Below, piece after piece: positions 1-42,353 of a stretch of 42,353 bases of DNA. Both the position numbers and the translations under genes were made by a program. The notes beneath the pieces are model-generated. The model had not been told where the DNA came from, searched no databases, and saw only the letters and a list, made by a program, of their open reading frames with translations. The stretch's first letter is position 1, and the number at the start of each line of letters is the position of its first letter. Source of the stretch: a virus. Its lineage: Duplodnaviria > Heunggongvirae > Uroviricota > Caudoviricetes. Where the stretch lies: IMG/VR virus record IMGVR_UViG_2654587736_000008, one strand, 5' to 3'.

Positions 1-2
1 CA

Positions 3-48
3 CTGTTTATCCATACAGTTAAAAATAATACTGTATACAAACACAGTA
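3..48 (+). promoter_or_regulatory. Two tandem LexA (SOS) boxes upstream of the dinI-like gene
   Basis: CTGT-N8-ACAG at 3-18 (CTGTttatccatACAG) and a near-consensus TACTGTatacaaacACAGTA at 29-48, immediately upstream of the ATG at 62. Confidence 0.65.
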
Positions 49-61
49 TAGAGGGACTTTT

Positions 62-310
62 ATGCGTATTGAAATCTGTATAGCCAAAGAAAAAATGACT
101 AAAATGCCAACCGGTGCTGTGGATGCGTTAAAGGAAGAATTAACCCGACGCATCAGTAAACGTTATGACGATGTAGAGGTGATCGTAAAAGCCACCAGCA
201 ACGATGGCCTTTCTGTTACGCGCACCGCCGATAAAGATTCAGCTAAAACTTTTGTTCAGGAAACTCTGAAAGATACCTGGGAGTCTGCTGACGAGTGGTT
301 TGTTCACTAA
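62..310 (+). CDS. dinI: DinI-like DNA-damage-inducible protein (prophage-encoded homologue)
   Basis: 82-aa ORF; N-terminal MRIEI.IAK and C-terminal [15 protein letters not shown] match the DinI family pattern; SD GAGGGA upstream; SOS boxes upstream. Confidence 0.8.
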
Positions 311-378
311 TTAGCACGTAAAATCAGTAACGGCTGGAAATCATTCAATACTCGCACTATCGAAAGTTAACCAGCCAG

Positions 379-416
379 CCGCAGTATCCTATCATGACAA
401 GTTACTGCGGCTTTTT
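379..416 (+). terminator. Intrinsic terminator candidate downstream of dinI-like gene
   Basis: Stem CCGCAGTA(379-386)/TACTGCGG(403-410) followed by CTTTTT. Confidence 0.45.
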
Positions 417-483
417 ACTTTTTATATTTAACGGATCAACATCCAGATCAGCAGACACGCCACCACCGGCACAGCAAAATCCA

Positions 484-714
484 TCAGGCTTGCCACATCC
501 CACGCGCGCGGATCAAAACCGCCCCACCACGCATATTCATTCGCTTGCCATGCCCGAACATTTCAATCCAGCGATATTCTGCCTGGGTGTGTTCACGCGC
601 AATGAAGAACGTACAACCGGCTATCGCTCCGTAAGCCCAGTTTCCGGTAAAAAGACCAACCAGTATCTGCGCAGCCACAGCACAAAGTGCATGAAGTAAG
701 GGGCTTATATCCAT
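484..714 (-). CDS. Small membrane protein, hypothetical (76 aa)
   Basis: ORF with strong SD (AAAGGAGG) 6 nt upstream of ATG at 714; hydrophobic segment LLHALCAVAAQILVGLFTGNWAYGAIAGCTFFIA; last gene of the tail-fibre operon. Confidence 0.5.
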   Translation of the reverse strand: MDISPLLHALCAVAAQILVGLFTGNWAYGAIAGCTFFIAREHTQAEYRWIEMFGHGKRMNMRGGAVLIRARGMWQA

Positions 715-726
715 TATTTCCTCCTT

Positions 727-1005
727 TCAGCTCCATTCCCGAAGCGGTGTTTCCAGCTCCACGACATAATCAGAGAATACAGAAACATCAAACAAGTCAT
801 CAAGAATGCGAATGTTGACAAAATAACCGTCATTCCGGACACAGACAGGTTCTCCCTCTTCTGTTACCCCTGTTTCTGTGTAGGTGAAACCAATTTCATC
901 GACTAACAGTTTATTCTGGAGGTCTTCATCCTCCTCCCAGTCAAGAGATGACAGGAAGGCCTTAAACTGCAGTTTGTCATGAAACTTCAAAGTTAAATCT
1001 TTCAT
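727..1005 (-). CDS. Hypothetical acidic protein, possible tail-fibre assembly/chaperone partner (92 aa)
   Basis: ATG overlaps the stop of the tail-fibre ORF (ATGA); acidic composition; no recognisable Tfa motif. Confidence 0.45.
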   Translation of the reverse strand: MKDLTLKFHDKLQFKAFLSSLDWEEDEDLQNKLLVDEIGFTYTETGVTEEGEPVCVRNDGYFVNIRILDDLFDVSVFSDYVVELETPLREWS

Positions 1006-2330
1006 ACGACCTCTTTTAATTGCCTGTCATTTAATTCTTTATGCCATATGCGGAAATTGCGAATATGGCCAAACAGATGTCGTTCTCCAGTATTCGTCTG
1101 CCCTCCAAATCGGATATTTTTATCAGCGGTCACACCATTATATTCACAATAAACTTCATTAACCGCTTTACCATTTGTCACCACATGAAAGTGACCATCA
1201 GCTTTTGCAATACATCCAAATGTGGTTTTCTCTGCAAATACATCTGTCGCTGCGCTATTAACATACAAGCCTGAAGGGTTTGACAGACTCATATATAACT
1301 TACCACTACCTCTGTTGATTGCTGCAATTGCTGATTGCCCGGTATTGGCTGCTGCTATATCCCACACGCGGGGTGCGGCGTTTGGTGCAATATCCCAGTT
1401 TTTATGAATCTCAAGTAAAAAAGTAAATGGTAACTTATAAAGATTATTTCTGGTGGGGATACTAACCAAATCACTGGCTCTTGTCGTTGCGCTGCCTCCT
1501 GAAATAATAAATGATGATACACACGGCCCATTCTCTACTTGTGGGGTGGCAAGATAAATATAGTCACCAGATACTGTTGCCCCACCCTGCTCAGGAGAAT
1601 ACTGTATCTGAGAGCCTATTTTTAACTCACCATCAATTGCCTGAATCGTTGCCTCTGCAAAAATCCAGCCCGTGGTCTTATCCTTCCTGACTCGTGCCGT
1701 AATTCTGCCGGCAGCACCACCTGTCATATTAATTTCAAGCGTTTGCGTATCAATGTACGCATCGCCAAGAAAAGTTGTTGCACTACCATCATACTTATCA
1801 AACCGTATACGTAACCTTACCTGTCGTTCTGTTTTAAAACGGCATGAGGTTGTCACGTACTTGTTATCGCCTGAGACATCAACTGACTTTGTTGCAGCAA
1901 TTGATGCCATATTAATAGCCGAAGTTTGCCCAACCAGAGAATCGTTGCAGACAAACTTTCCATAAGTAAAACCAAAACTATCCGTCCCGGTTTCGGGCAC
2001 ATCCATGTTTGATGACTTCCCCCAGCTGGCTGGACTTTCCGAATTGAGCATGTAGTTCGTTCTTTGTCCCTCAATAAGCAGGCCATCACACTCAAATCGC
2101 GGCTCATTAATTTCCGCCGTTTTCAGTTCGCCAGATTTGTTGATATATGTTGCCGTTGATGCGCGACTGAAATTAACCTGTTTATCACTGGCGACCTGAA
2201 CCACATCGTCACCAATAGCTATTTTTTTATAGCCCGGAGAAAAACCCGCAATCATATCCAGTGAATCGTTAAACGGTATCCACACATCAGGCAGCGGCGG
2301 CACTATATTCGCATAGGGCTCTGCAGTCAC
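1002..2330 (-). CDS. Side tail fibre protein, C-terminal receptor-binding portion (frame separated from N-terminal part by a -1 frameshift)
   Basis: 442-aa ORF; the same frame is open upstream to about 2502 and encodes an Ala/Thr/Lys-rich continuation of the Stf-like shaft. Confidence 0.7.
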   Translation of the reverse strand: MTAEPYANIVPPLPDVWIPFNDSLDMIAGFSPGYKKIAIGDDVVQVASDKQVNFSRASTATYINKSGELKTAEINEPRFECDGLLIEGQRTNYMLNSESPASWGKSSNMDVPETGTDSFGFTYGKFVCNDSLVGQTSAINMASIAATKSVDVSGDNKYVTTSCRFKTERQVRLRIRFDKYDGSATTFLGDAYIDTQTLEINMTGGAAGRITARVRKDKTTGWIFAEATIQAIDGELKIGSQIQYSPEQGGATVSGDYIYLATPQVENGPCVSSFIISGGSATTRASDLVSIPTRNNLYKLPFTFLLEIHKNWDIAPNAAPRVWDIAAANTGQSAIAAINRGSGKLYMSLSNPSGLYVNSAATDVFAEKTTFGCIAKADGHFHVVTNGKAVNEVYCEYNGVTADKNIRFGGQTNTGERHLFGHIRNFRIWHKELNDRQLKEVV

Positions 2331-3061
2331 TTCCGCTGCGGCTTCTGCGCGGTCTGCCGCCTTTTCAGCTCGTGTCGCTGCCGACAGAGCCTCATCCTTT
2401 TTCTGCCCGGCCTTTGTTGCGTCTGCTGCAGCCTCCCGCGCTTTTGTGGTGGCGACTCCGGCATTTTCAGCGGCTGACTCTGCATTACGGCGGGAAGCTC
2501 TTCACTGTCTGCGGAGGCTTCTTCTGACGCACGGGCATTTGTCTCTGAACGTTCTGCCGCTGTTGCTGCGTTTTGTGCGGCTGTTTTTGAAGAAGCTGCC
2601 GCTTTCGCGCTGTTACCTGCATTCGTCTCTGATGTTTTCGCCGCGTTCCTGGACGATGCCGCTGCTGTTTCTGATTTCTTTGCTGCCGCTGCGCTCTGAG
2701 AGGCGGCTTCAGCGTTGCGTGCCACATCCTCCACCATTACCTCAAAACGACGCAATGCCTCCGGCATGACATCCTCTTCCGTCATGGCACCCAGAAAATC
2801 ATTCAGCGTCCCCGGCTTAGAATCCTCATACACGGTGATGGTCCCGGCATGTGAAGGCGGAAAACCTTCAACCAGCAGGATAACGCTGTACTGGCCATAC
2901 TCGACATCCATGCTGTAACGTCCGGCTTCATCCGGATTTTCTGAGGCCACCGTGTTCACCACCACCGTGCTGCTGGTCCGTCTGGCCTTCAGCACAATGG
3001 TGCAGTTCTGTACTGGTTTTCCTGTGCCATCTTTAAGCACGCCAGAAATTTTTACTGTCAT
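2327..3061 (-). CDS. stf: Side tail fibre protein, N-terminal portion (lambda Stf-like); reading frame breaks near 2495-2505
   Basis: N-terminus MTVKISGVLKDGTGKPVQNCTIVLKARR...GRYSMDVEYGQYSV closely resembles lambda Stf; the last ~60 residues of this ORF are basic low-complexity, consistent with out-of-frame translation. Confidence 0.7.
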   Translation of the reverse strand: MTVKISGVLKDGTGKPVQNCTIVLKARRTSSTVVVNTVASENPDEAGRYSMDVEYGQYSVILLVEGFPPSHAGTITVYEDSKPGTLNDFLGAMTEEDVMPEALRRFEVMVEDVARNAEAASQSAAAAKKSETAAASSRNAAKTSETNAGNSAKAAASSKTAAQNAATAAERSETNARASEEASADSEELPAVMQSQPLKMPESPPQKRGRLQQTQQRPGRKRMRLCRQRHELKRRQTAQKPQRK

Positions 3062-3075
3062 ACTTTTCCACCAAT

Positions 3076-3106
3076 AAAAAAAGCCCGCAGCAGTGACGCC
3101 ACGGGC
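3076..3106 (-). terminator. Terminator-like hairpin between lom and stf
   Basis: On minus strand GCCCG...CGGGC followed by TTTTTTT; the loop is long, so only moderate confidence. Confidence 0.35.
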
Positions 3107-3212
3107 TTCAGGACAGTGTAACTTTACGTTTCCTCAAACGCAGTTCACTCCATAAGGCGGATGAACCTGCGTATCATAACAATATTTACAGAAGATAAAT
3201 CGGCGTCTGTTG

Positions 3213-3812
3213 TCAGAAACGGTATCCGATACCAACAATAAATGCATCCGTTCGCCAGTCGCCACTACCGGAACCTTCATAAGCAAGGTCAATGGTCACG
3301 GATTCGGTCGGGTTAAACTGCACGCCAGCCCCCCACGCCAGAGACGTGTTGCTGTGGCGACCGTCATCACTTCCGGTCAGCACATCGTGCGTTTTCCCCT
3401 TGTTGTCAGTTACGCGGAGATAATCCCCGGAGAAAGTCGACACACGGCTGTAAGCCACACCCGCCATCGAATACGCGCTGAACCATTCATTCACGCGTAC
3501 AGACGGCCCCGCCATCACGCTGAACCAGCGGTTACGCACGGAATCTTCATGCCAGCGGGTATCGCTGTAGTGCGTTTTTTGCTCATCCTCAGCATTGGCA
3601 TAACTGAAGGACGTAATCAGCCCCAGCGCGTCCGTAAACTCATAACGGTATTTCACGTTAATCCCGTTCAGATTATCGCTGCCGGGAGCGTTCGTACGGG
3701 CATGAAGATACCCCGCGCTCAGTGTGGACTGATGTTCAGACGCCCATGCAGGCGCACCGGATACGGACAGACAGATGGCTGCGGACAAAATGACTGCACA
3801 AACTTTACGCAT
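3213..3812 (-). CDS. lom: Lom outer-membrane protein (Ail/Lom/PagC family)
   Basis: 199 aa; signal peptide then SEHQSTLSAGYLHA...GINVKYRYEF...GIGYRF, near-identical in pattern to lambda Lom. Confidence 0.9.
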   Translation of the reverse strand: MRKVCAVILSAAICLSVSGAPAWASEHQSTLSAGYLHARTNAPGSDNLNGINVKYRYEFTDALGLITSFSYANAEDEQKTHYSDTRWHEDSVRNRWFSVMAGPSVRVNEWFSAYSMAGVAYSRVSTFSGDYLRVTDNKGKTHDVLTGSDDGRHSNTSLAWGAGVQFNPTESVTIDLAYEGSGSGDWRTDAFIVGIGYRF

Positions 3813-3833
3813 AATTACCTCTCGCTTTTCTGC

Positions 3834-3860
3834 AATAAAAAAGGCGCCATTTCTGGCGCC
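3834..3860 (-). terminator. Intrinsic terminator downstream of J
   Basis: Minus strand: 7-bp stem GGCGCCA-GAAA-TGGCGCC followed by TTTTTTATT. Confidence 0.6.
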
Positions 3861-3879
3861 CGTATATGGGTTATAAAAT

Positions 3880-6800
3880 TCAGCTGATACTGATGCCTGC
3901 GGTGGCTTTCTTCATCACCACAACCAGCAAATCGCTGATACTTGCTGTGGGATACCAGTTATTCACCAGCCATGCTGACACCGAAAACTCCAGCGTCATG
4001 TGGCCGCGACCAGCTGGCATATCAATAACACCACTGTAAATCAGCGTATTATCCAGCGCGGTACGGTTATAAATTTCAGCACCGTTTTTCCGTACTATCA
4101 GGCGGCATGACGAATAAATATCGTTATTCTCCCGCTCATGTTTAGCGCCGCTGAATGCCACCGCCGGAATAACAATCTGCCGGTCAAACGGCTGATCGTC
4201 ATAAACCCTGACGGTGATGGTCCCTGATGGCCACCGTTCCGGTGCACGGGAGTCCCGGGGGAAAGCTTTGCCCACTGTTTTAACGAGATCGCCTTCAATC
4301 TGGTTGGCGGACAATTTTCCCAGAACCCGACAGTTCTCGTTAATCGTGACGTTGTTGAGCGTCCCGGAGTTCGCATTCACGTTACCGCTGATATCGGCAT
4401 TTTTCGCCGTCAGCCGCCCGTCCGGTGTCAGGGAAAATGCCGGAGGATTACCGCCGCTGGTAATGGTCGGAGCCGTCAGGCGTTTCAGGAACACGTCGTT
4501 CATGAATATCTGATCGCCCTGACCAACAAACATCGGCTTTGTGTTGCCATTCGCAGGATTAATCATCGCAATCCGGTCAGCAGCCAGAAGCACCTGACTC
4601 TGCATACCTGCTGGCGTATTCTCAATACCGGCTCCGATACCCGCAATATAAAGGCGTCCGTCCTTCATCTGCTGCAGTTTCACGGCCCACATGCTGTTCA
4701 GGTTATTATTTGTATCAACCTGAACTTTCTGTATCTGCTGGATTGCCGCACTCTGGTCTTCCAGTTTTTTATTGACGGTCTGCGTGATTTCATTGCTGAC
4801 ATTCGTAATGGACGTCCTGATTTCAGCCAGGTCCGGCGCAAGCTGACCGTTATCAATCTGCGTCCACAACTCCTGGGCCAGATGTGTTTTCCCGATTTCT
4901 CCTTTGAAAAAATCCAGGTAACCTTCCGCATCATCGCTCGCCCGACCGACAGCCTCCACGAATGCCGATTTGCCAACGGTGTTCACACTGCGAACGTAAA
5001 AATAATAATCATGGCCCGGTTTGATATTGATACTGGCGGCTATCCAGTACAGCGCCGTACCAAGATAGCGGGCTGTGGTTTCAACCTGCCTGATATCGGT
5101 AATCCGCTTTTCCGAGAACCAGAACTCAAACTGTACCGTCGGGTCATAAACAGCAAGATGCGGCGTGGCGGTTATCTGAAAATAGCCCGGCGTCAGCTCA
5201 ATCCTCGACGGTGCTGCCGGTGCGGCAATCCGGAACGATACCGACGCCGGATCGCCCTGCTGCCCCCGGGCATTTACCGCCCGGACTGTCAGCCTGTAGT
5301 TCCCCAGCGCCAGTTGCGTGAAGCGGTATGTGGTTTCCGTCGTCCGGGCCGTGCTGACCAGTCGCTCACTGCCGTCGTCCGCTGTTACGGTCAGACGGAG
5401 CAGGAAGCTCACGCCCTTCACCACCTTCGGTGTGTCCCATCGCGCCAGCACCTGATATTCCCCGCTGTCTGCAGTGACTTCGGCGGTCAGGTGCTGCACT
5501 GCTGGCGGCGTGACACCATTCACCGTGCCGCTCTGGTCACCGTCAAAGTGCGCCCCGTTATCCACGATGGCTTCTTTCTCCGGTACATGCTGCACGGCGG
5601 TGATGGCATACGTGCCGTCATCGTTCTCACGGATACTCACGCAGCGGAACAGGCGCTGGCGCAGCGTCGGCAGCTTCAGCCCCCACACGCTGTATTCTGC
5701 AACGCCGTCAGGAACACGGCTCACTTTCACCTTCACGCCGTCGGTGACGGACTGGACCTCCACGCTGACCGGATTACCCTGACCGTCAACCAGGCTTATC
5801 AGCGTGGTACCGGAGGATGGCAGCGTGATTTCACGGTCGAGCGTCAGCGTCCGGGTCTGGCTGTTCACCGCCAGCACGCGACCACCGGTGCTGATACCGG
5901 CATAGTCATCATCGCAGATTTCAATGACATCGCCCGGTACATGGCGAAGCCCTTCAGCACCCACGCTGAAATCCACGGTCTGCGTCTCCAGCAGTTCCGT
6001 TTTAATCAGCCACAGCCCGGCGCGGTGTGCCTGCCCCCGGCTGGTACAGCCAAAGGCATCCATCTTCGTGACGTTACGACCGTAACGGGCAATGGCCTGC
6101 GTGTCCTCCACAAGCTCTGTTGCCGTTTCCCAGCCGTTATCCGGGTCAGTCCAGTTCACCTCAACGGCATTATGGCGGTCCTTCAGGGCGCTGAAACTGT
6201 AGCGGAACGGCGCGCCATCATCCGGCATCACCACATTACTGCGGTTATAGGTCCACACCTTATCTGATGGTCGGTCCTGCACGAACGTCAGCGTCTGCCC
6301 GTTCCATACCGGCATACAGCGCATCGCCGAGCAGAAATCACTGAGCACATCCCACGCCTTGCGCTGTGTGGTCAGGTAAGCGTTACAGGTGATGCGCGGC
6401 TCCGTGCCGCCAAAGCCGTCCGGCACCGACTGGTCGCAATTCTGGCCGATGACATACAGCGCCCATTTATCCACATCCGCCGCACCAAGACGTTTCCCCA
6501 TGCCGTAGCGCGGATGGGTCAGCATATCCCACAGACACCAGGCCATGTTGTTGCTGTATGCCGGTTTTAACGTTCCGTCCCAGATACCGCTGTATTGCCG
6601 CGTCTGCGGGTTATAGTTCGACGGCACCTGCAGAATGCGCCCGCGAAGATGATAATTACGGCTCACCTGCTGGCTGCCGAACTGCTCCGAGTCCACCTGC
6701 ACGCCAACCAGTGCCGTGTTCGGGTAGCACTGTTTCACATCGATGATTTCGGTGTATGACGACCAGAGCGTTTTGTTCTGCAGCTGGTCTGTGGTGCTGT

Positions 6801-40042: not shown

Positions 40043-40783
40043 ATGACTACTTTTACCGACAAAGAACTGATTAAAGAAATCAGAGAGCGAATCGGCAGCC
40101 TGGACGTGCGAGACAATATTGAGCGCCTGGCTTATGAAATCGCACTGGCATCGCTGGCAGCAGTATCGGATGAACGAGCAGCCTATGAATTATTTATGGA
40201 GAAGCGTTTCGGGGAATCTGTAGATCGCCGTAGGGCAAAAAATGGCGATAGAGAATACATGGCATGGGATATGGCGCTTGGCTGGATTATCTGGTGTCAC
40301 CGCGCCGCCATGCTTCAGGGTAGCCAACCTGTAAGCCAAACTTACAACTTGCCAGAATTAATCGAAGGCATGGAAGTTTCCATTGATGTAAGCACTTGTG
40401 ATGCTGATTTAGGTAATCGCTATTTCGGCACCGTCACCGAGGCGTTAGAACTTGATACAGCCAAGAATGGTTACATCCTCCTGGTTCAGGACGCAGAGCC
40501 AAACTTCGATGTAAATGGCAACTCTCCGGGAACTCCGGATAGTTGGGTTATGGTGCCGAAGAGACTAACAGCAGAGAACGGCGCTAAGGGGGTGCTATCC
40601 GGTGAATTTTCAGAAACTACGTTTATAAGCTGCCTGGAATGCTTTGGCGATGATGATTGCGATACCTGTGACGGGAGCGGACGTATTGAAATTAAAGTGC
40701 CAGTCACGTGGTCGACCATAAAATCTATCTGGGATAAAGGTATCGAGTATTTTGCAGCAAAACCATCACAAGAGGTGAAGTGA
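40043..40783 (+). CDS. Hypothetical protein with C-terminal Cys-cluster (246 aa)
   Basis: CLECFGDDDCDTCDGSGR zinc-ribbon-like motif; SD upstream. Confidence 0.5.
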   Translation: MTTFTDKELIKEIRERIGSLDVRDNIERLAYEIALASLAAVSDERAAYELFMEKRFGESVDRRRAKNGDREYMAWDMALGWIIWCHRAAMLQGSQPVSQTYNLPELIEGMEVSIDVSTCDADLGNRYFGTVTEALELDTAKNGYILLVQDAEPNFDVNGNSPGTPDSWVMVPKRLTAENGAKGVLSGEFSETTFISCLECFGDDDCDTCDGSGRIEIKVPVTWSTIKSIWDKGIEYFAAKPSQEVK

Positions 40784-41355
40784 TGAACAACTTAATGATC
40801 GACCTTGAGACGATGGGGAAAAATAAGGATGCACCGATCGTTTCCATTGGCGCGGTGTTCTTCACTCCAGAAACCGGAGACATCGGACAAGAATTCTATA
40901 CGGTTGTTAGCCTGGAAAGTGCTATGGGGCAAGGAGCTACACCTGACGGCGATACCATCCTGTGGTGGTTGAAACAAAGCCCTGAGGCACGAGCTGCAAT
41001 CTGTATTGATGATACTTTGTCGATCAGCGATGCTCTCTCAGAACTAAATCATTTCATTAACCGGCACGCAGCCAATACGAAATATTTAAAAGTCTGGGGT
41101 AACGGGGCCACCTTCGACAACGTAATTTTACGTGGAGCTTATGAGCGAGCAGGACAAATCTGCCCGTGGGCATACTGGAATGACCACGATGTACGCACGA
41201 TCGTTACGCTTGGGCGTTCCATCGGATTCGACCCCAAAATAGACATGCCTTTCGATGGCGAACGGCACAACGCCCTGGCCGATGCCCGTCATCAGGCAAA
41301 ATATGTTTCCGCTATCTGGCAGAAATTAATTCCTGCCACCAGCACAGAATTATGA
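40783..41355 (+). CDS. 3'-5' exonuclease, DEDDh (DnaQ-like) family
   Basis: Exo I motif MIDLETMG and Exo III-like HNALADA; ATG 40783 with SD AGAGGTG. Confidence 0.7.
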   Translation: MNNLMIDLETMGKNKDAPIVSIGAVFFTPETGDIGQEFYTVVSLESAMGQGATPDGDTILWWLKQSPEARAAICIDDTLSISDALSELNHFINRHAANTKYLKVWGNGATFDNVILRGAYERAGQICPWAYWNDHDVRTIVTLGRSIGFDPKIDMPFDGERHNALADARHQAKYVSAIWQKLIPATSTEL

Positions 41356-41391
41356 TTTTCCCGGGTGCAGCCGGTTTTGATGGAGAAAATT

Positions 41392-41673
41392 ATGAACACC
41401 TTGTTTTTACTGATGGCTGAATTCAATACCCCTAACATTGAACTCTCAGCAGTTAGCCAAAAGTACTTTGGCATGAGTCCAGCCACGGCAGAAGCAAAAG
41501 CAAACGCTTGTAAGTTGCCCGTTCCAACATATCGCATCGGCACATCACAAAAAGCAAAACGTTGCATCAATATTCAGGATCTTGCGGAATACATAGACAA
41601 AAGACGAGAAGAAGGACGTATCGAGTGGGAACAGGTCAGAACAGGCAAACAGAAGGGCAAAGAACATCACTAA
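41392..41673 (+). CDS. PrtN/excisionase-like DNA-binding protein
   Basis: MNTLFLLMAEFNTPNIELSAVSQKYFGMS...LPVPTYRIG pattern typical of PrtN-family/excisionase-like proteins; last gene of the early-left operon. Confidence 0.5.
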   Translation: MNTLFLLMAEFNTPNIELSAVSQKYFGMSPATAEAKANACKLPVPTYRIGTSQKAKRCINIQDLAEYIDKRREEGRIEWEQVRTGKQKGKEHH

Positions 41674-41674
41674 A

Positions 41675-41705
41675 GAAAAAACCCGCCTAAAGGCGGGTTT
41701 TCAAA
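41675..41705. terminator. Bidirectional intrinsic terminator between convergent operons
   Basis: A7-CCCGCC-TAAA-GGCGGG-T4. Confidence 0.75.
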
Positions 41706-41720
41706 AAGCACCAGCTATGA

Positions 41721-41894
41721 TCATGCTACTTTGCGACGACGAAGCTTACCCTGCTGCTCTTTACCAGAGACAGTAGCGTGAGTGAACGCATTAGGAGCAG
41801 CCTTCATCAGAACTTCAACAGCAGCCCCCATACCTGCGAATGCTTTCATTGTGTCGAACTTAACCTGTGGCTTGGTTGCTTTTTGATCTTCCAT
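41721..41894 (-). CDS. Small hypothetical protein (57 aa; below ORF-track cutoff)
   Basis: ATG 41894 with SD GGAG 7 nt upstream; basic C-terminus (GKLRRRKVA). Confidence 0.45.
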   Translation of the reverse strand: MEDQKATKPQVKFDTMKAFAGMGAAVEVLMKAAPNAFTHATVSGKEQQGKLRRRKVA

Positions 41895-41933
41895 AGAAAA
41901 CTCCAGAAGCTATACCGAAAAAATTCCTGTTGT

Positions 41934-42353
41934 TTACTCATCATCAATAGATGATACGCAATATTTATTTTTAAATTTAAGGTTCTTTGGCGTAACTTCA
42001 TCAGATATATCAAAACCGTCCAGAATTCTATTGAATGTAGCTTCTGGCATATCATCATGAACAGAAATCTCACCCGATCGCTGCTTTCTAACCATGTTAT
42101 CCACTCGCCAAATTATAGCTTCAGCGTAAACAACATAACTTGGATGCTTGATAAAGCGATGATCACCAGAATTCAAGACGCAAGACGGATCGTGGGGGAC
42201 ACCATCCTTGATACTAGAAATATTAACAACTAAAACACAATAACAATCGTTAACGGGGTAATAAACAGGATCATTACAAATCACATGAAGATGATTGCAT
42301 GGCCCTGTTGGGGCAAGCACAGTTCCTTTCCTGTATGGCTGATAATCCGTCAT
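41934..42353 (-). CDS. Hypothetical protein in AT-rich cargo DNA (139 aa; ORF begins at the window edge, so the 5' end may be incomplete)
   Basis: ORF in AT-rich sequence convergent with the early-left operon; Cys/His-rich; no recognisable family. Confidence 0.45.
   Translation of the reverse strand: MTDYQPYRKGTVLAPTGPCNHLHVICNDPVYYPVNDCYCVLVVNISSIKDGVPHDPSCVLNSGDHRFIKHPSYVVYAEAIIWRVDNMVRKQRSGEISVHDDMPEATFNRILDGFDISDEVTPKNLKFKNKYCVSSIDDE

What the first reader, a model, noticed from the sequence alone, without database searches (positions are those of the whole stretch)
41675..42353. AT-rich convergent two-gene cassette at the xis/int junction: candidate novel accessory or defence module
Behind a bidirectional terminator lie a 139-aa Cys/His-rich protein and, 39 nt downstream with its own SD, a 57-aa protein with a basic tail, both on the opposite strand to the early operon. 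The DNA is markedly more AT-rich than the flanking phage genes. Placement, composition and the large-protein-plus-small-partner layout are typical of horizontally acquired defence or toxin-antitoxin-like cargo. No motif I can name explains either protein.
Basis: inference. Interest (0 to 1): 0.65.

Follow-up and report, generated by a model that had tools for sequence, protein, structure and literature searches.

The report
PanAT toxin-antitoxin cut by window edge
The 139-aa gene is the toxin half of an already described kind of prophage toxin-antitoxin pair (a Panacea-domain antitoxin with a MazF-fold toxin); its antitoxin gene lies just past the window edge, and the 57-aa gene next to it is an unrelated small phage gene, so this is ordinary mobile cargo and not a new system.

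The parts
41934..42353 (-). panT: complete 139-aa toxin gene of a PanAT type II toxin-antitoxin pair (MazF/Kid/CcdB fold, Kurata cluster T6 type)
42350..42352 (-). TGA stop codon of the upstream antitoxin gene panA (190 aa, otherwise outside the window), overlapping the panT ATG as ATGA, which suggests translational coupling
   Evidence: 100%-identical DNA in E. coli K-15KW01 (L001) and 99.1%-identical DNA in phage SKA5 (L002). PanA hits PF13274 SocA_Panacea at 67.9 bits against a cutoff of 25.7. The -4 overlap recurs in 20 of 36 other loci.
41905..42353 (-). The part of the 1,213-bp panAT cargo cassette that lies inside the window (GC 0.407); its left junction with the phage backbone is at 41904/41905
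   Evidence: blastn of K-15KW01 against mEp460: homology ends at L001 6605 (window 41904) and resumes at L001 7819-7896 next to attP. Cassette GC.
41721..41894 (-). 57-aa small basic protein gene (phrog_2741), a conserved phage gene that is not part of the PanAT module; probably co-transcribed with panAT in this arrangement
   Evidence: PHROGs E = 2e-35. Purifying selection: 15 synonymous vs 6 non-synonymous codon changes against Enterobacter. Elsewhere it always follows phrog_4350. Absent downstream of panT in all other loci. AF2 model poor, pLDDT 62.
41901..41904 (-). GGAG Shine-Dalgarno of the 57-aa gene, retained on the backbone side of the cassette junction
   Evidence: Sequence; junction position.
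41678..41701 (.). G+C-rich hairpin terminator shared by the convergent xis transcript (+) and the panA-panT-57aa transcript (-)
   Evidence: -16.2 kcal/mol, z = -4.75. Terminator-like site called on the - strand. Rfam gives only sub-threshold hits on this hairpin.
41392..41673 (+). Context: PrtN-type excisionase gene converging on the cassette
   Evidence: PF11112 E = 4e-23; phrog_1300 excisionase; RefSeq coordinates.

Best explanation
The 139-aa ORF is the toxin gene (panT) of a PanAT type II toxin-antitoxin module. Its antitoxin gene panA (190 aa, standalone Panacea/DUF4065 domain) lies immediately upstream, just outside the window, and its stop codon overlaps the panT start (ATGA), so the two are probably translationally coupled. 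PanT has a MazF/Kid/CcdB-type fold and belongs to the family Kurata et al. 2022 called toxin cluster T6. By analogy with the validated T6 member from P. moraviensis, free PanT should arrest growth by selectively inhibiting translation, most likely by cleaving RNA, and PanA should neutralise it by direct binding. The pair is a 1.2-kb AT-rich cassette in the variable slot between xis and attP of a dusA-integrating lambdoid prophage. The 57-aa gene is not a partner. It is a conserved small phage gene (phrog_2741) whose usual upstream neighbour, phrog_4350, has been replaced here by panAT, leaving it 39 nt downstream of panT and probably read through from the panAT transcript to the shared terminator. 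Shown here: gene order, domain identity, co-occurrence, fold, cassette boundaries. Inferred: toxicity, neutralisation, RNase chemistry, co-transcription, and any benefit to the lysogen such as prophage stabilisation or abortive infection.
Confidence: 0.85

Rival explanations
1. One reading: the 139-aa and 57-aa proteins form a self-contained two-gene toxin-antitoxin or defence pair, a large effector with a small partner.
For: They are adjacent, co-oriented, 39 nt apart and share a terminator. This arrangement is present in about 205 complete E. coli genomes.
Against: None of the 37 other loci encoding a 139-aa homologue shows a 57-aa gene downstream in the neighbourhoods inspected. The 57-aa gene occurs without the 139-aa gene in 358 E. 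coli genomes and in Salmonella, Enterobacter and Hafnia, always behind phrog_4350. The recombination junction lies between the two genes. The 139-aa gene has a far better-supported partner, PanA.
Confidence: 0.03
2. A three-part system: in this prophage lineage the 57-aa protein has been recruited as a third component of PanAT, for example a regulator, an adaptor, or a second antitoxin-like factor with a basic nucleic-acid-binding tail.
For: Co-transcription is likely, given the 39-nt gap with no terminator between the genes. The junction preserved the 57-aa gene and its Shine-Dalgarno exactly. The gene is under purifying selection. Kurata's pipeline allowed conserved three-gene architectures.
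Against: The association is confined to one cassette-swap event in closely related E. coli prophages (95-100% identical DNA). PanAT works as a two-gene unit everywhere else. The 57-aa protein has its own habitual partner. Its AF2 model is largely disordered.
Confidence: 0.07
3. The 139-aa protein has the MazF/CcdB fold but is not an endoribonuclease. It could be a CcdB-like gyrase poison, a metal-binding protein using the conserved His/Asp/Cys/His set, or a non-toxic RNA- or DNA-binding factor.
Against: MazF and Kid outrank CcdB in both structure searches. The validated T6 member inhibited translation specifically, not replication (PMC8832971). Strict pairing with an antitoxin-type gene argues for toxicity.
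Confidence: 0.1

Closest known systems
PanAT type II toxin-antitoxin systems, toxin cluster T6 (PanA/PanT of Pseudomonas moraviensis LMG 24280; Kurata et al. 2022, PNAS, PMC8832971)
   Same: Standalone Panacea (PF13274) antitoxin of about 185-190 aa encoded first, then a toxin of about 130-140 aa with no Pfam domain, at -4 or -1 nt spacing. MazF-like toxin fold. Proteobacterial, often in prophages. The same genomes (Pantoea septica LMG 5345, strain 2016Iso4) appear in T6 and in my homologue set with the same spacings.
   Different: This E. coli prophage pair has not been tested experimentally. It is roughly 30-60% identical to other family members, and I made no direct alignment to the validated P. 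moraviensis toxin. Here the pair is followed by an extra, unrelated 57-aa gene.
MazF/PemK/Kid endoribonuclease toxins (Pfam PF02452; e.g. PDB 4mzm, 1m1f, 8zws)
   Different: No detectable sequence similarity. The antitoxin is a Panacea protein, not MazE/PemI/Kis. There is an extra C-terminal helical region (residues about 104-131). The conserved residues are His/Asp/Cys/His, not the MazF Arg/Thr pair. RNase activity is unproven.
PanAT of E. coli STEC O31 (toxin cluster T3; Kurata et al. 2022)
   Same: An E. coli PanA-neutralised toxin-antitoxin pair.
   Different: That toxin is a small membrane-depolarising peptide unrelated to the 139-aa protein.
Cargo ('moron') slots at lambdoid prophage ends, here in a dusA-integrating phage (mEp460, SKA5, Lys8385Vzw)
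   Same: An AT-rich, independently transcribed accessory cassette between xis and attP that is swapped between otherwise near-identical phages.
   Different: Nothing unusual. The two alternative fillings are panAT or phrog_4350.

Membership tests
PanAT (Panacea-neutralised toxin-antitoxin) | An adjacent, co-oriented gene encodes a Panacea/DUF4065 (PF13274) protein | tested here: met
   190-aa upstream protein: PF13274, 67.9 bits against a cutoff of 25.7. It lies outside the window but is present in 100%-identical DNA.
PanAT (Panacea-neutralised toxin-antitoxin) | The two-gene architecture is conserved across diverse taxa and genomic contexts | tested here: met
   36 of 37 other loci have a same-strand upstream ORF. 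All 37 upstream ORFs scanned (those 36 plus this locus) are PF13274. A -4 overlap occurs in 20 of the 36. Contexts differ.
PanAT (Panacea-neutralised toxin-antitoxin) | The toxin belongs to a described PanT cluster (T6) | tested here: met
   Indirect: T6 lists Pantoea septica LMG 5345 (gap -4) and strain 2016Iso4 (gap -1), and L026 and L025 are those genomes with the same gaps. No direct alignment with WP_083201923.1 was possible.
PanAT (Panacea-neutralised toxin-antitoxin) | The toxin is growth-inhibitory and is neutralised by the cognate PanA through complex formation | not testable with these tools
   Shown only for the P. moraviensis T6 representative (PMC8832971).
MazF/PemK/Kid toxin superfamily | SH3-like barrel fold of MazF/Kid/CcdB | tested here: met
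MazF/PemK/Kid toxin superfamily | Sequence-profile match to Pfam PemK_toxin (PF02452) or to solved MazF sequences | tested here: not met
   No PemK hit for the protein or for 69 diverse relatives. PDB profile searches find nothing. hhalign against E. coli MazF gives probability 0.3%.
MazF/PemK/Kid toxin superfamily | Catalytic Arg and Thr/Ser (E. coli MazF R29/T52) and endoribonuclease activity | not testable with these tools
By eye, H21-L22-H23 and N44-I-S-S fall where MazF has H28-R29-P30 and T52; this is inference only.
Known anti-phage defence systems (PADLOC-DB v2) | A match to any defence-system protein model | tested here: not met
   No hits for the 139-aa, 57-aa, PanA or phrog_4350 proteins.
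phrog_4350 + phrog_2741 gene pair (for the 57-aa gene) | The 57-aa gene lies 140-197 nt downstream of a 177-179-aa phrog_4350 gene | tested here: not met
   In the window phrog_4350 is replaced by panAT. The pairing holds in mEp460, Salmonella, Enterobacter and Hafnia and in 358 E. coli genomes.

The most novel reading that the evidence does not exclude
The T6-type PanT toxins, including this one, are not conventional MazF-type RNases. They use a family-specific His21 / Asp55 / Cys58 / His65 constellation on a MazF-like scaffold, either as a different catalytic mechanism (for example His-based or metal-dependent cleavage of a specific tRNA or rRNA) or as a Zn site with a new target. In addition, the 57-aa basic protein retained downstream modulates the module in this prophage lineage.
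Probability: 0.15. Interest if true: 0.5.

Novelty: new member of a known kind. Interest (0 to 1): 0.22.

Why it matters
It mainly matters as a correction. An apparently orphan "Cys/His-rich protein plus small partner" is the truncated view of a published class of toxin-antitoxin module, so it should not be pursued as a new defence system. Three modest points remain. (1) About 4% of complete E. coli genomes (205 of 5,426) carry this untested PanAT pair at the end of a dusA-integrating prophage, and RefSeq still calls the toxin "hypothetical protein" and probably starts it 11 codons too late. (2) The toxin family is large (2,703 cluster representatives) and has no Pfam model, and its conserved His/Asp/Cys/His residues leave its chemistry open. 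(3) The clean either/or swap between panAT and phrog_4350 provides natural near-isogenic prophages for testing what each cargo does for the lysogen.

Tried and rejected
1. Pfam, NCBIfam and PADLOC scans of the 139-aa and 57-aa proteins gave nothing meaningful; weak ICMT and DapC hits were far below threshold.
2. PDB sequence-profile searches with the narrow (A1) and broad (A5) alignments gave only chance hits, E of at least 0.3.
3. hhalign of A1 against E. coli MazF found no alignment, so catalytic residues could not be mapped.
4. RefSeq accessions from this locus were not found in the Kurata 2022 and NetFlax 2023 supplements, but the stored files are truncated. The cluster-member lookup did not display the WP numbers needed for a direct accession match.
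5. The promoter scan upstream of panA gave 3 sites against 4.4 expected, so it is uninformative.
6. Rfam on the locus gave only sub-threshold hits on the terminator hairpin.
7. AF2 of the 57-aa protein was low confidence (pLDDT 62), so I did not run a fold search on it.
8. My by-eye impression that phrog_4350 is GNAT-like got no support: Pfam found nothing and the PDB profile search returned only spurious HIV gp41 constructs. It is not claimed.
9. The afdb50 fold library was unavailable.
10. Looking for the other prophage end in K-15KW01 by coordinate arithmetic landed outside the prophage, and I dropped it.

Full report
**1. The observation**

The window is a lambdoid E. coli prophage. Tail genes (J, lom, stf) lie on the minus strand at its start. 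An Rv2179c-like 3'-5' exonuclease (40780-41355) and a PrtN-type excisionase (41392-41673) lie on the plus strand at its end.

- A complete 139-aa ORF at 42353..41934 (-), whose ATG is the last codon of the window.
- A 57-aa ORF at 41894..41721 (-), 39 nt downstream, with GGAG 6 nt before its ATG.
- A hairpin at 41678-41701 flanked by A and T runs: -16.2 kcal/mol, z = -4.75, with 0 of 200 shuffles as stable. The scanner calls it a terminator on the minus strand.
- A 139-aa protein with 6 Cys and 6 His, and a gene GC of 0.383 against 0.511 for the window.

The 57-aa gene, at GC 0.483, is not AT-rich.

**2. What the window edge hides**

Megablast of 41300-42353 finds 100%-identical DNA in six complete E. 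coli chromosomes and 99% identity in phages SKA5 and Lys8385Vzw.
- In all of them a 190-aa gene lies directly upstream on the same strand, and its TGA overlaps the 139-aa ATG (ATGA).
- That protein passes Pfam's SocA_Panacea (PF13274) gathering threshold, 67.9 bits against 25.7.
- The window contains only its stop codon (42350-42352).
- Beyond panA come about 195 nt of cassette DNA, 78 bp of conserved phage DNA, the attachment site inside a dusA 5' fragment, and then int.
- Window position 1 is the first base after the int stop codon. The window is therefore the phage genome minus the roughly 2.1-kb int-attP-panA segment, and "xis/int junction" is only loosely true.

**3. The conserved unit is PanA plus the 139-aa protein**

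- The 139-aa protein has no Pfam, NCBIfam or PADLOC match. It belongs to phrog_19071, of unknown function.
- Word-indexed searches found 62 clusters with the single sequence and 198 with the profile. An exhaustive profile search found 2,703 representatives at E ≤ 1e-3 and 929 at E ≤ 1e-10.
- I examined six family members at 52-73% identity (17 loci) from Shewanella, Vibrio, Proteus, Pantoea, E. coli and Enterobacter. I also examined 31 loci from species-representative genomes, extending to Alpha- and Betaproteobacteria at 30-40% identity.
- In 36 of these 37 loci a same-strand ORF of 117-227 aa ends between -4 and +62 nt of the toxin start, with a -4 overlap in 20. The one exception is cut off at a contig end.
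- All 37 upstream ORFs scanned, including the one at this locus, hit PF13274 (best E = 6.9e-28).
- The pair sits in unrelated contexts: between tail genes K and I, just after a cI-like repressor, beside a tail fibre, in a P4-like island, in a P2-like prophage, and next to a giant MuF polyvalent protein. It behaves as an autonomous mobile two-gene module. No 57-aa gene follows it in any of these loci.

**4. Fold of the 139-aa protein**

- AlphaFold2 with the 54-sequence alignment gives mean pLDDT 90.2 and pTM 0.84: a β-barrel core (residues 10-83) followed by helices.
- Foldseek's top 50 PDB hits are all MazF, with E from 4e-3 and TM 0.45-0.63.
- In the viral structure library the top named hits are PemK-like or endoribonuclease proteins.
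- There is no sequence-level link. None of 69 diverse members hits PF02452, PDB sequence profiles find nothing, and hhalign against E. coli MazF finds nothing.
- In the broad alignment H21 is invariant, and L22, D55, C58, G63, H65, F67, S72 and Y76 are at least 90% conserved. This is not the MazF Arg/Thr catalytic pair, so the chemistry is open.

**5. Relation to published work**

Kurata et al. 2022 (PMC8832971) named DUF4065 "Panacea". They showed that PanA antitoxins pair with dozens of unrelated toxins, and they validated nine PanAT pairs.
- Their toxin cluster T6 is proteobacterial, has antitoxin-then-toxin gene order, and typically has gaps of -4 or -1 nt.
- T6 contains the validated P. 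moraviensis pair. That toxin had no CDD hit, was MazF/PemK-like by HHpred, was toxic, was neutralised by and pulled down with PanA, and selectively inhibited 35S-Met incorporation.
- The T6 table lists Pantoea septica LMG 5345 (gap -4) and "Yersiniaceae bacterium 2016Iso4" (gap -1). My loci L026 and L025 are those genomes, carry 56% and 55% identical homologues, and show exactly those gaps.
- Proteus, Pluralibacter and Salinivibrio socompensis appear both in the T6 table and in my results.
- The N-terminus the authors restored to P. moraviensis PanA (MIFSEQKVAQ) matches this PanA family's consensus MFxExKxAQ.
- I conclude the 139-aa protein is a T6-type PanT. I could not obtain WP_083201923.1 for a direct alignment.
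- The other validated E. coli PanAT pair (STEC O31, cluster T3) has an unrelated membrane-peptide toxin.
- Ernits et al. 2023 (PMC10440598) report that a standalone Panacea domain neutralises its toxin directly, and they hypothesise a sensor role. No phage-defence phenotype is reported for this toxin type.

**6. The 57-aa gene**

- It is a real coding gene. Against the Enterobacter copy, 15 of 22 differences fall at third codon positions, with 15 synonymous and 6 non-synonymous codon changes.
- It belongs to phrog_2741, is confined to Enterobacterales (mostly Enterobacteriaceae, plus Hafnia) and is almost always 57 aa.
- It has a conserved KFDT-KAFAGMGAAVEVLMKAAPNAF core and a basic tail.
- Its AF2 model is poor (pLDDT 62).
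- In mEp460, Salmonella, Enterobacter and Hafnia it always follows, by 140-197 nt, a 177-179-aa protein of phrog_4350 (65-89% identical to one another; no Pfam or PADLOC hit). That pair is itself mobile: it sits beside xis/attP in some phages and between Q/antiterminator and the lysis genes in others.
- blastn shows that homology between our prophage and mEp460 breaks at window 41904, which is 10 nt upstream of the 57-aa ATG and just past its GGAG. Homology resumes 195 nt upstream of panA.
- So a 1,213-bp panAT cassette (GC 0.407) replaces an 806-bp segment carrying phrog_4350 and its spacer.
- Among 5,426 complete E. coli genomes about 565 carry the 57-aa gene: 205 with panAT upstream and 358 with phrog_4350.

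**7. Mechanism: what is shown and what is inferred**

Shown: gene order, overlap, domain identity, co-occurrence, fold, and cassette boundaries.

Inferred from the validated T6 homologue and general type II toxin-antitoxin knowledge:
- PanA and PanT are co-translated and form an inactive complex.
- Free PanT blocks translation, most probably by RNA cleavage on a MazF-like scaffold.
- The transcript runs through the 57-aa gene to the shared hairpin terminator.
- In the lysogen, the orphaned host dusA promoter and 5' fragment (MPAESHTVYPAYRFSIAPMLDRMYRF*) are co-oriented about 240 nt upstream of panA and could add read-through transcription.

Whether the module stabilises the prophage or aborts infection by other phages is not addressed by any evidence here. 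PADLOC has no model for it.

**8. Verdict**

It is a new, untested member of a known kind, and interest is low.

Residual questions:
- The catalytic chemistry of T6 toxins.
- The function of the phrog_4350 / 57-aa pair.
- The likely mis-set RefSeq start for the toxin. RefSeq gives 128 aa from a GTG, whereas residues 1-11 are conserved across the family (M1 in at least 90% of members, G10 invariant) and the ATGA overlap recurs widely.

Noticed in passing
window 41721-41894 (-); L003 4792-5325, L053 2274-2807, L057 2283-2822, L061 2319-2858: The 57-aa gene (phrog_2741) has a habitual upstream partner, a 177-179-aa protein (phrog_4350; no Pfam, PADLOC or PDB match). The pair is mobile: it sits beside xis/attP in mEp460 and Salmonella, and between Q/antiterminator and holin genes in Enterobacter and Hafnia. 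It is an uncharacterised two-gene accessory module in its own right. It looked GNAT-like to me by eye, but no test supported that.
   Followed up: partly
L003 4596-4791 (-), L053 2808-3000, L057 2823-3000: The 140-197-nt spacer between phrog_4350 and the 57-aa gene carries a conserved inverted repeat, CACCAATCG(N6-8)CGATTGG, and a second hairpin-like element (TACCTT-AAAGGTA). This could be an operator, a terminator or attenuator, or a small RNA. The spacer is deleted in the panAT arrangement.
   Followed up: no
window 42321-42353 (-); L001 7021-7054: RefSeq annotates the toxin as 128 aa starting at GTG (codon 12). The family alignment conserves residues 1-11 (M1 and P6 in at least 90%, G10 invariant), and the ATGA overlap with panA recurs in 20 of 36 other loci, so the 139-aa ATG start is more likely correct.
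   Followed up: yes
L001 7861-7941 (-), about 240 nt upstream of panA: The host dusA 5' fragment (MPAESHTVYPAYRFSIAPMLDRMYRF*) left behind by integration points into the prophage on the same strand as panA-panT-57aa. The orphaned dusA promoter could therefore drive the cargo in lysogens. The phage carries its own dusA 5' surrogate next to int (SKA5 L002 6859-6981).
   Followed up: partly
window 1 and 42353: Both window ends fall exactly on gene boundaries. Position 1 is the first base after the int stop codon (as in SKA5 and mEp460), and position 42353 is the first base of the panT ATG. The window is the phage genome minus the roughly 2.1-kb int-attP-panA segment.
   Followed up: yes
L061-L063 (Hafnia) 995-2109: A 319-352-aa RelA_SpoT-domain gene, possibly a toxSAS or CapRel-like defence gene, lies immediately upstream of the phrog_4350/57-aa pair between Q and the holin genes. 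This suggests that slot is a defence or accessory-gene hotspot.
   Followed up: no
L012-L014 (Pantoea) 2057-3905: Here the PanAT pair lies directly downstream of, and co-oriented with, the cI-like repressor (HTH plus Peptidase_S24). That is the position classically occupied by lysogen-expressed exclusion genes such as rexAB, which hints that this module is expressed in lysogens.
   Followed up: no
L015 and L017 (E. coli) 1-3902: A divergent E. coli PanAT pair (toxin 52% identical) lies immediately after a 2,791-aa MuF/LPD polyvalent protein on contigs of about 26-33 kb (L015, L017), probably a plasmid or phage-plasmid.
   Followed up: no
window 62-310 (+): A DinI-family gene (82 aa) lies immediately downstream of where int would be, as in mEp460, SKA5 and Lys8385Vzw.
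   Followed up: no
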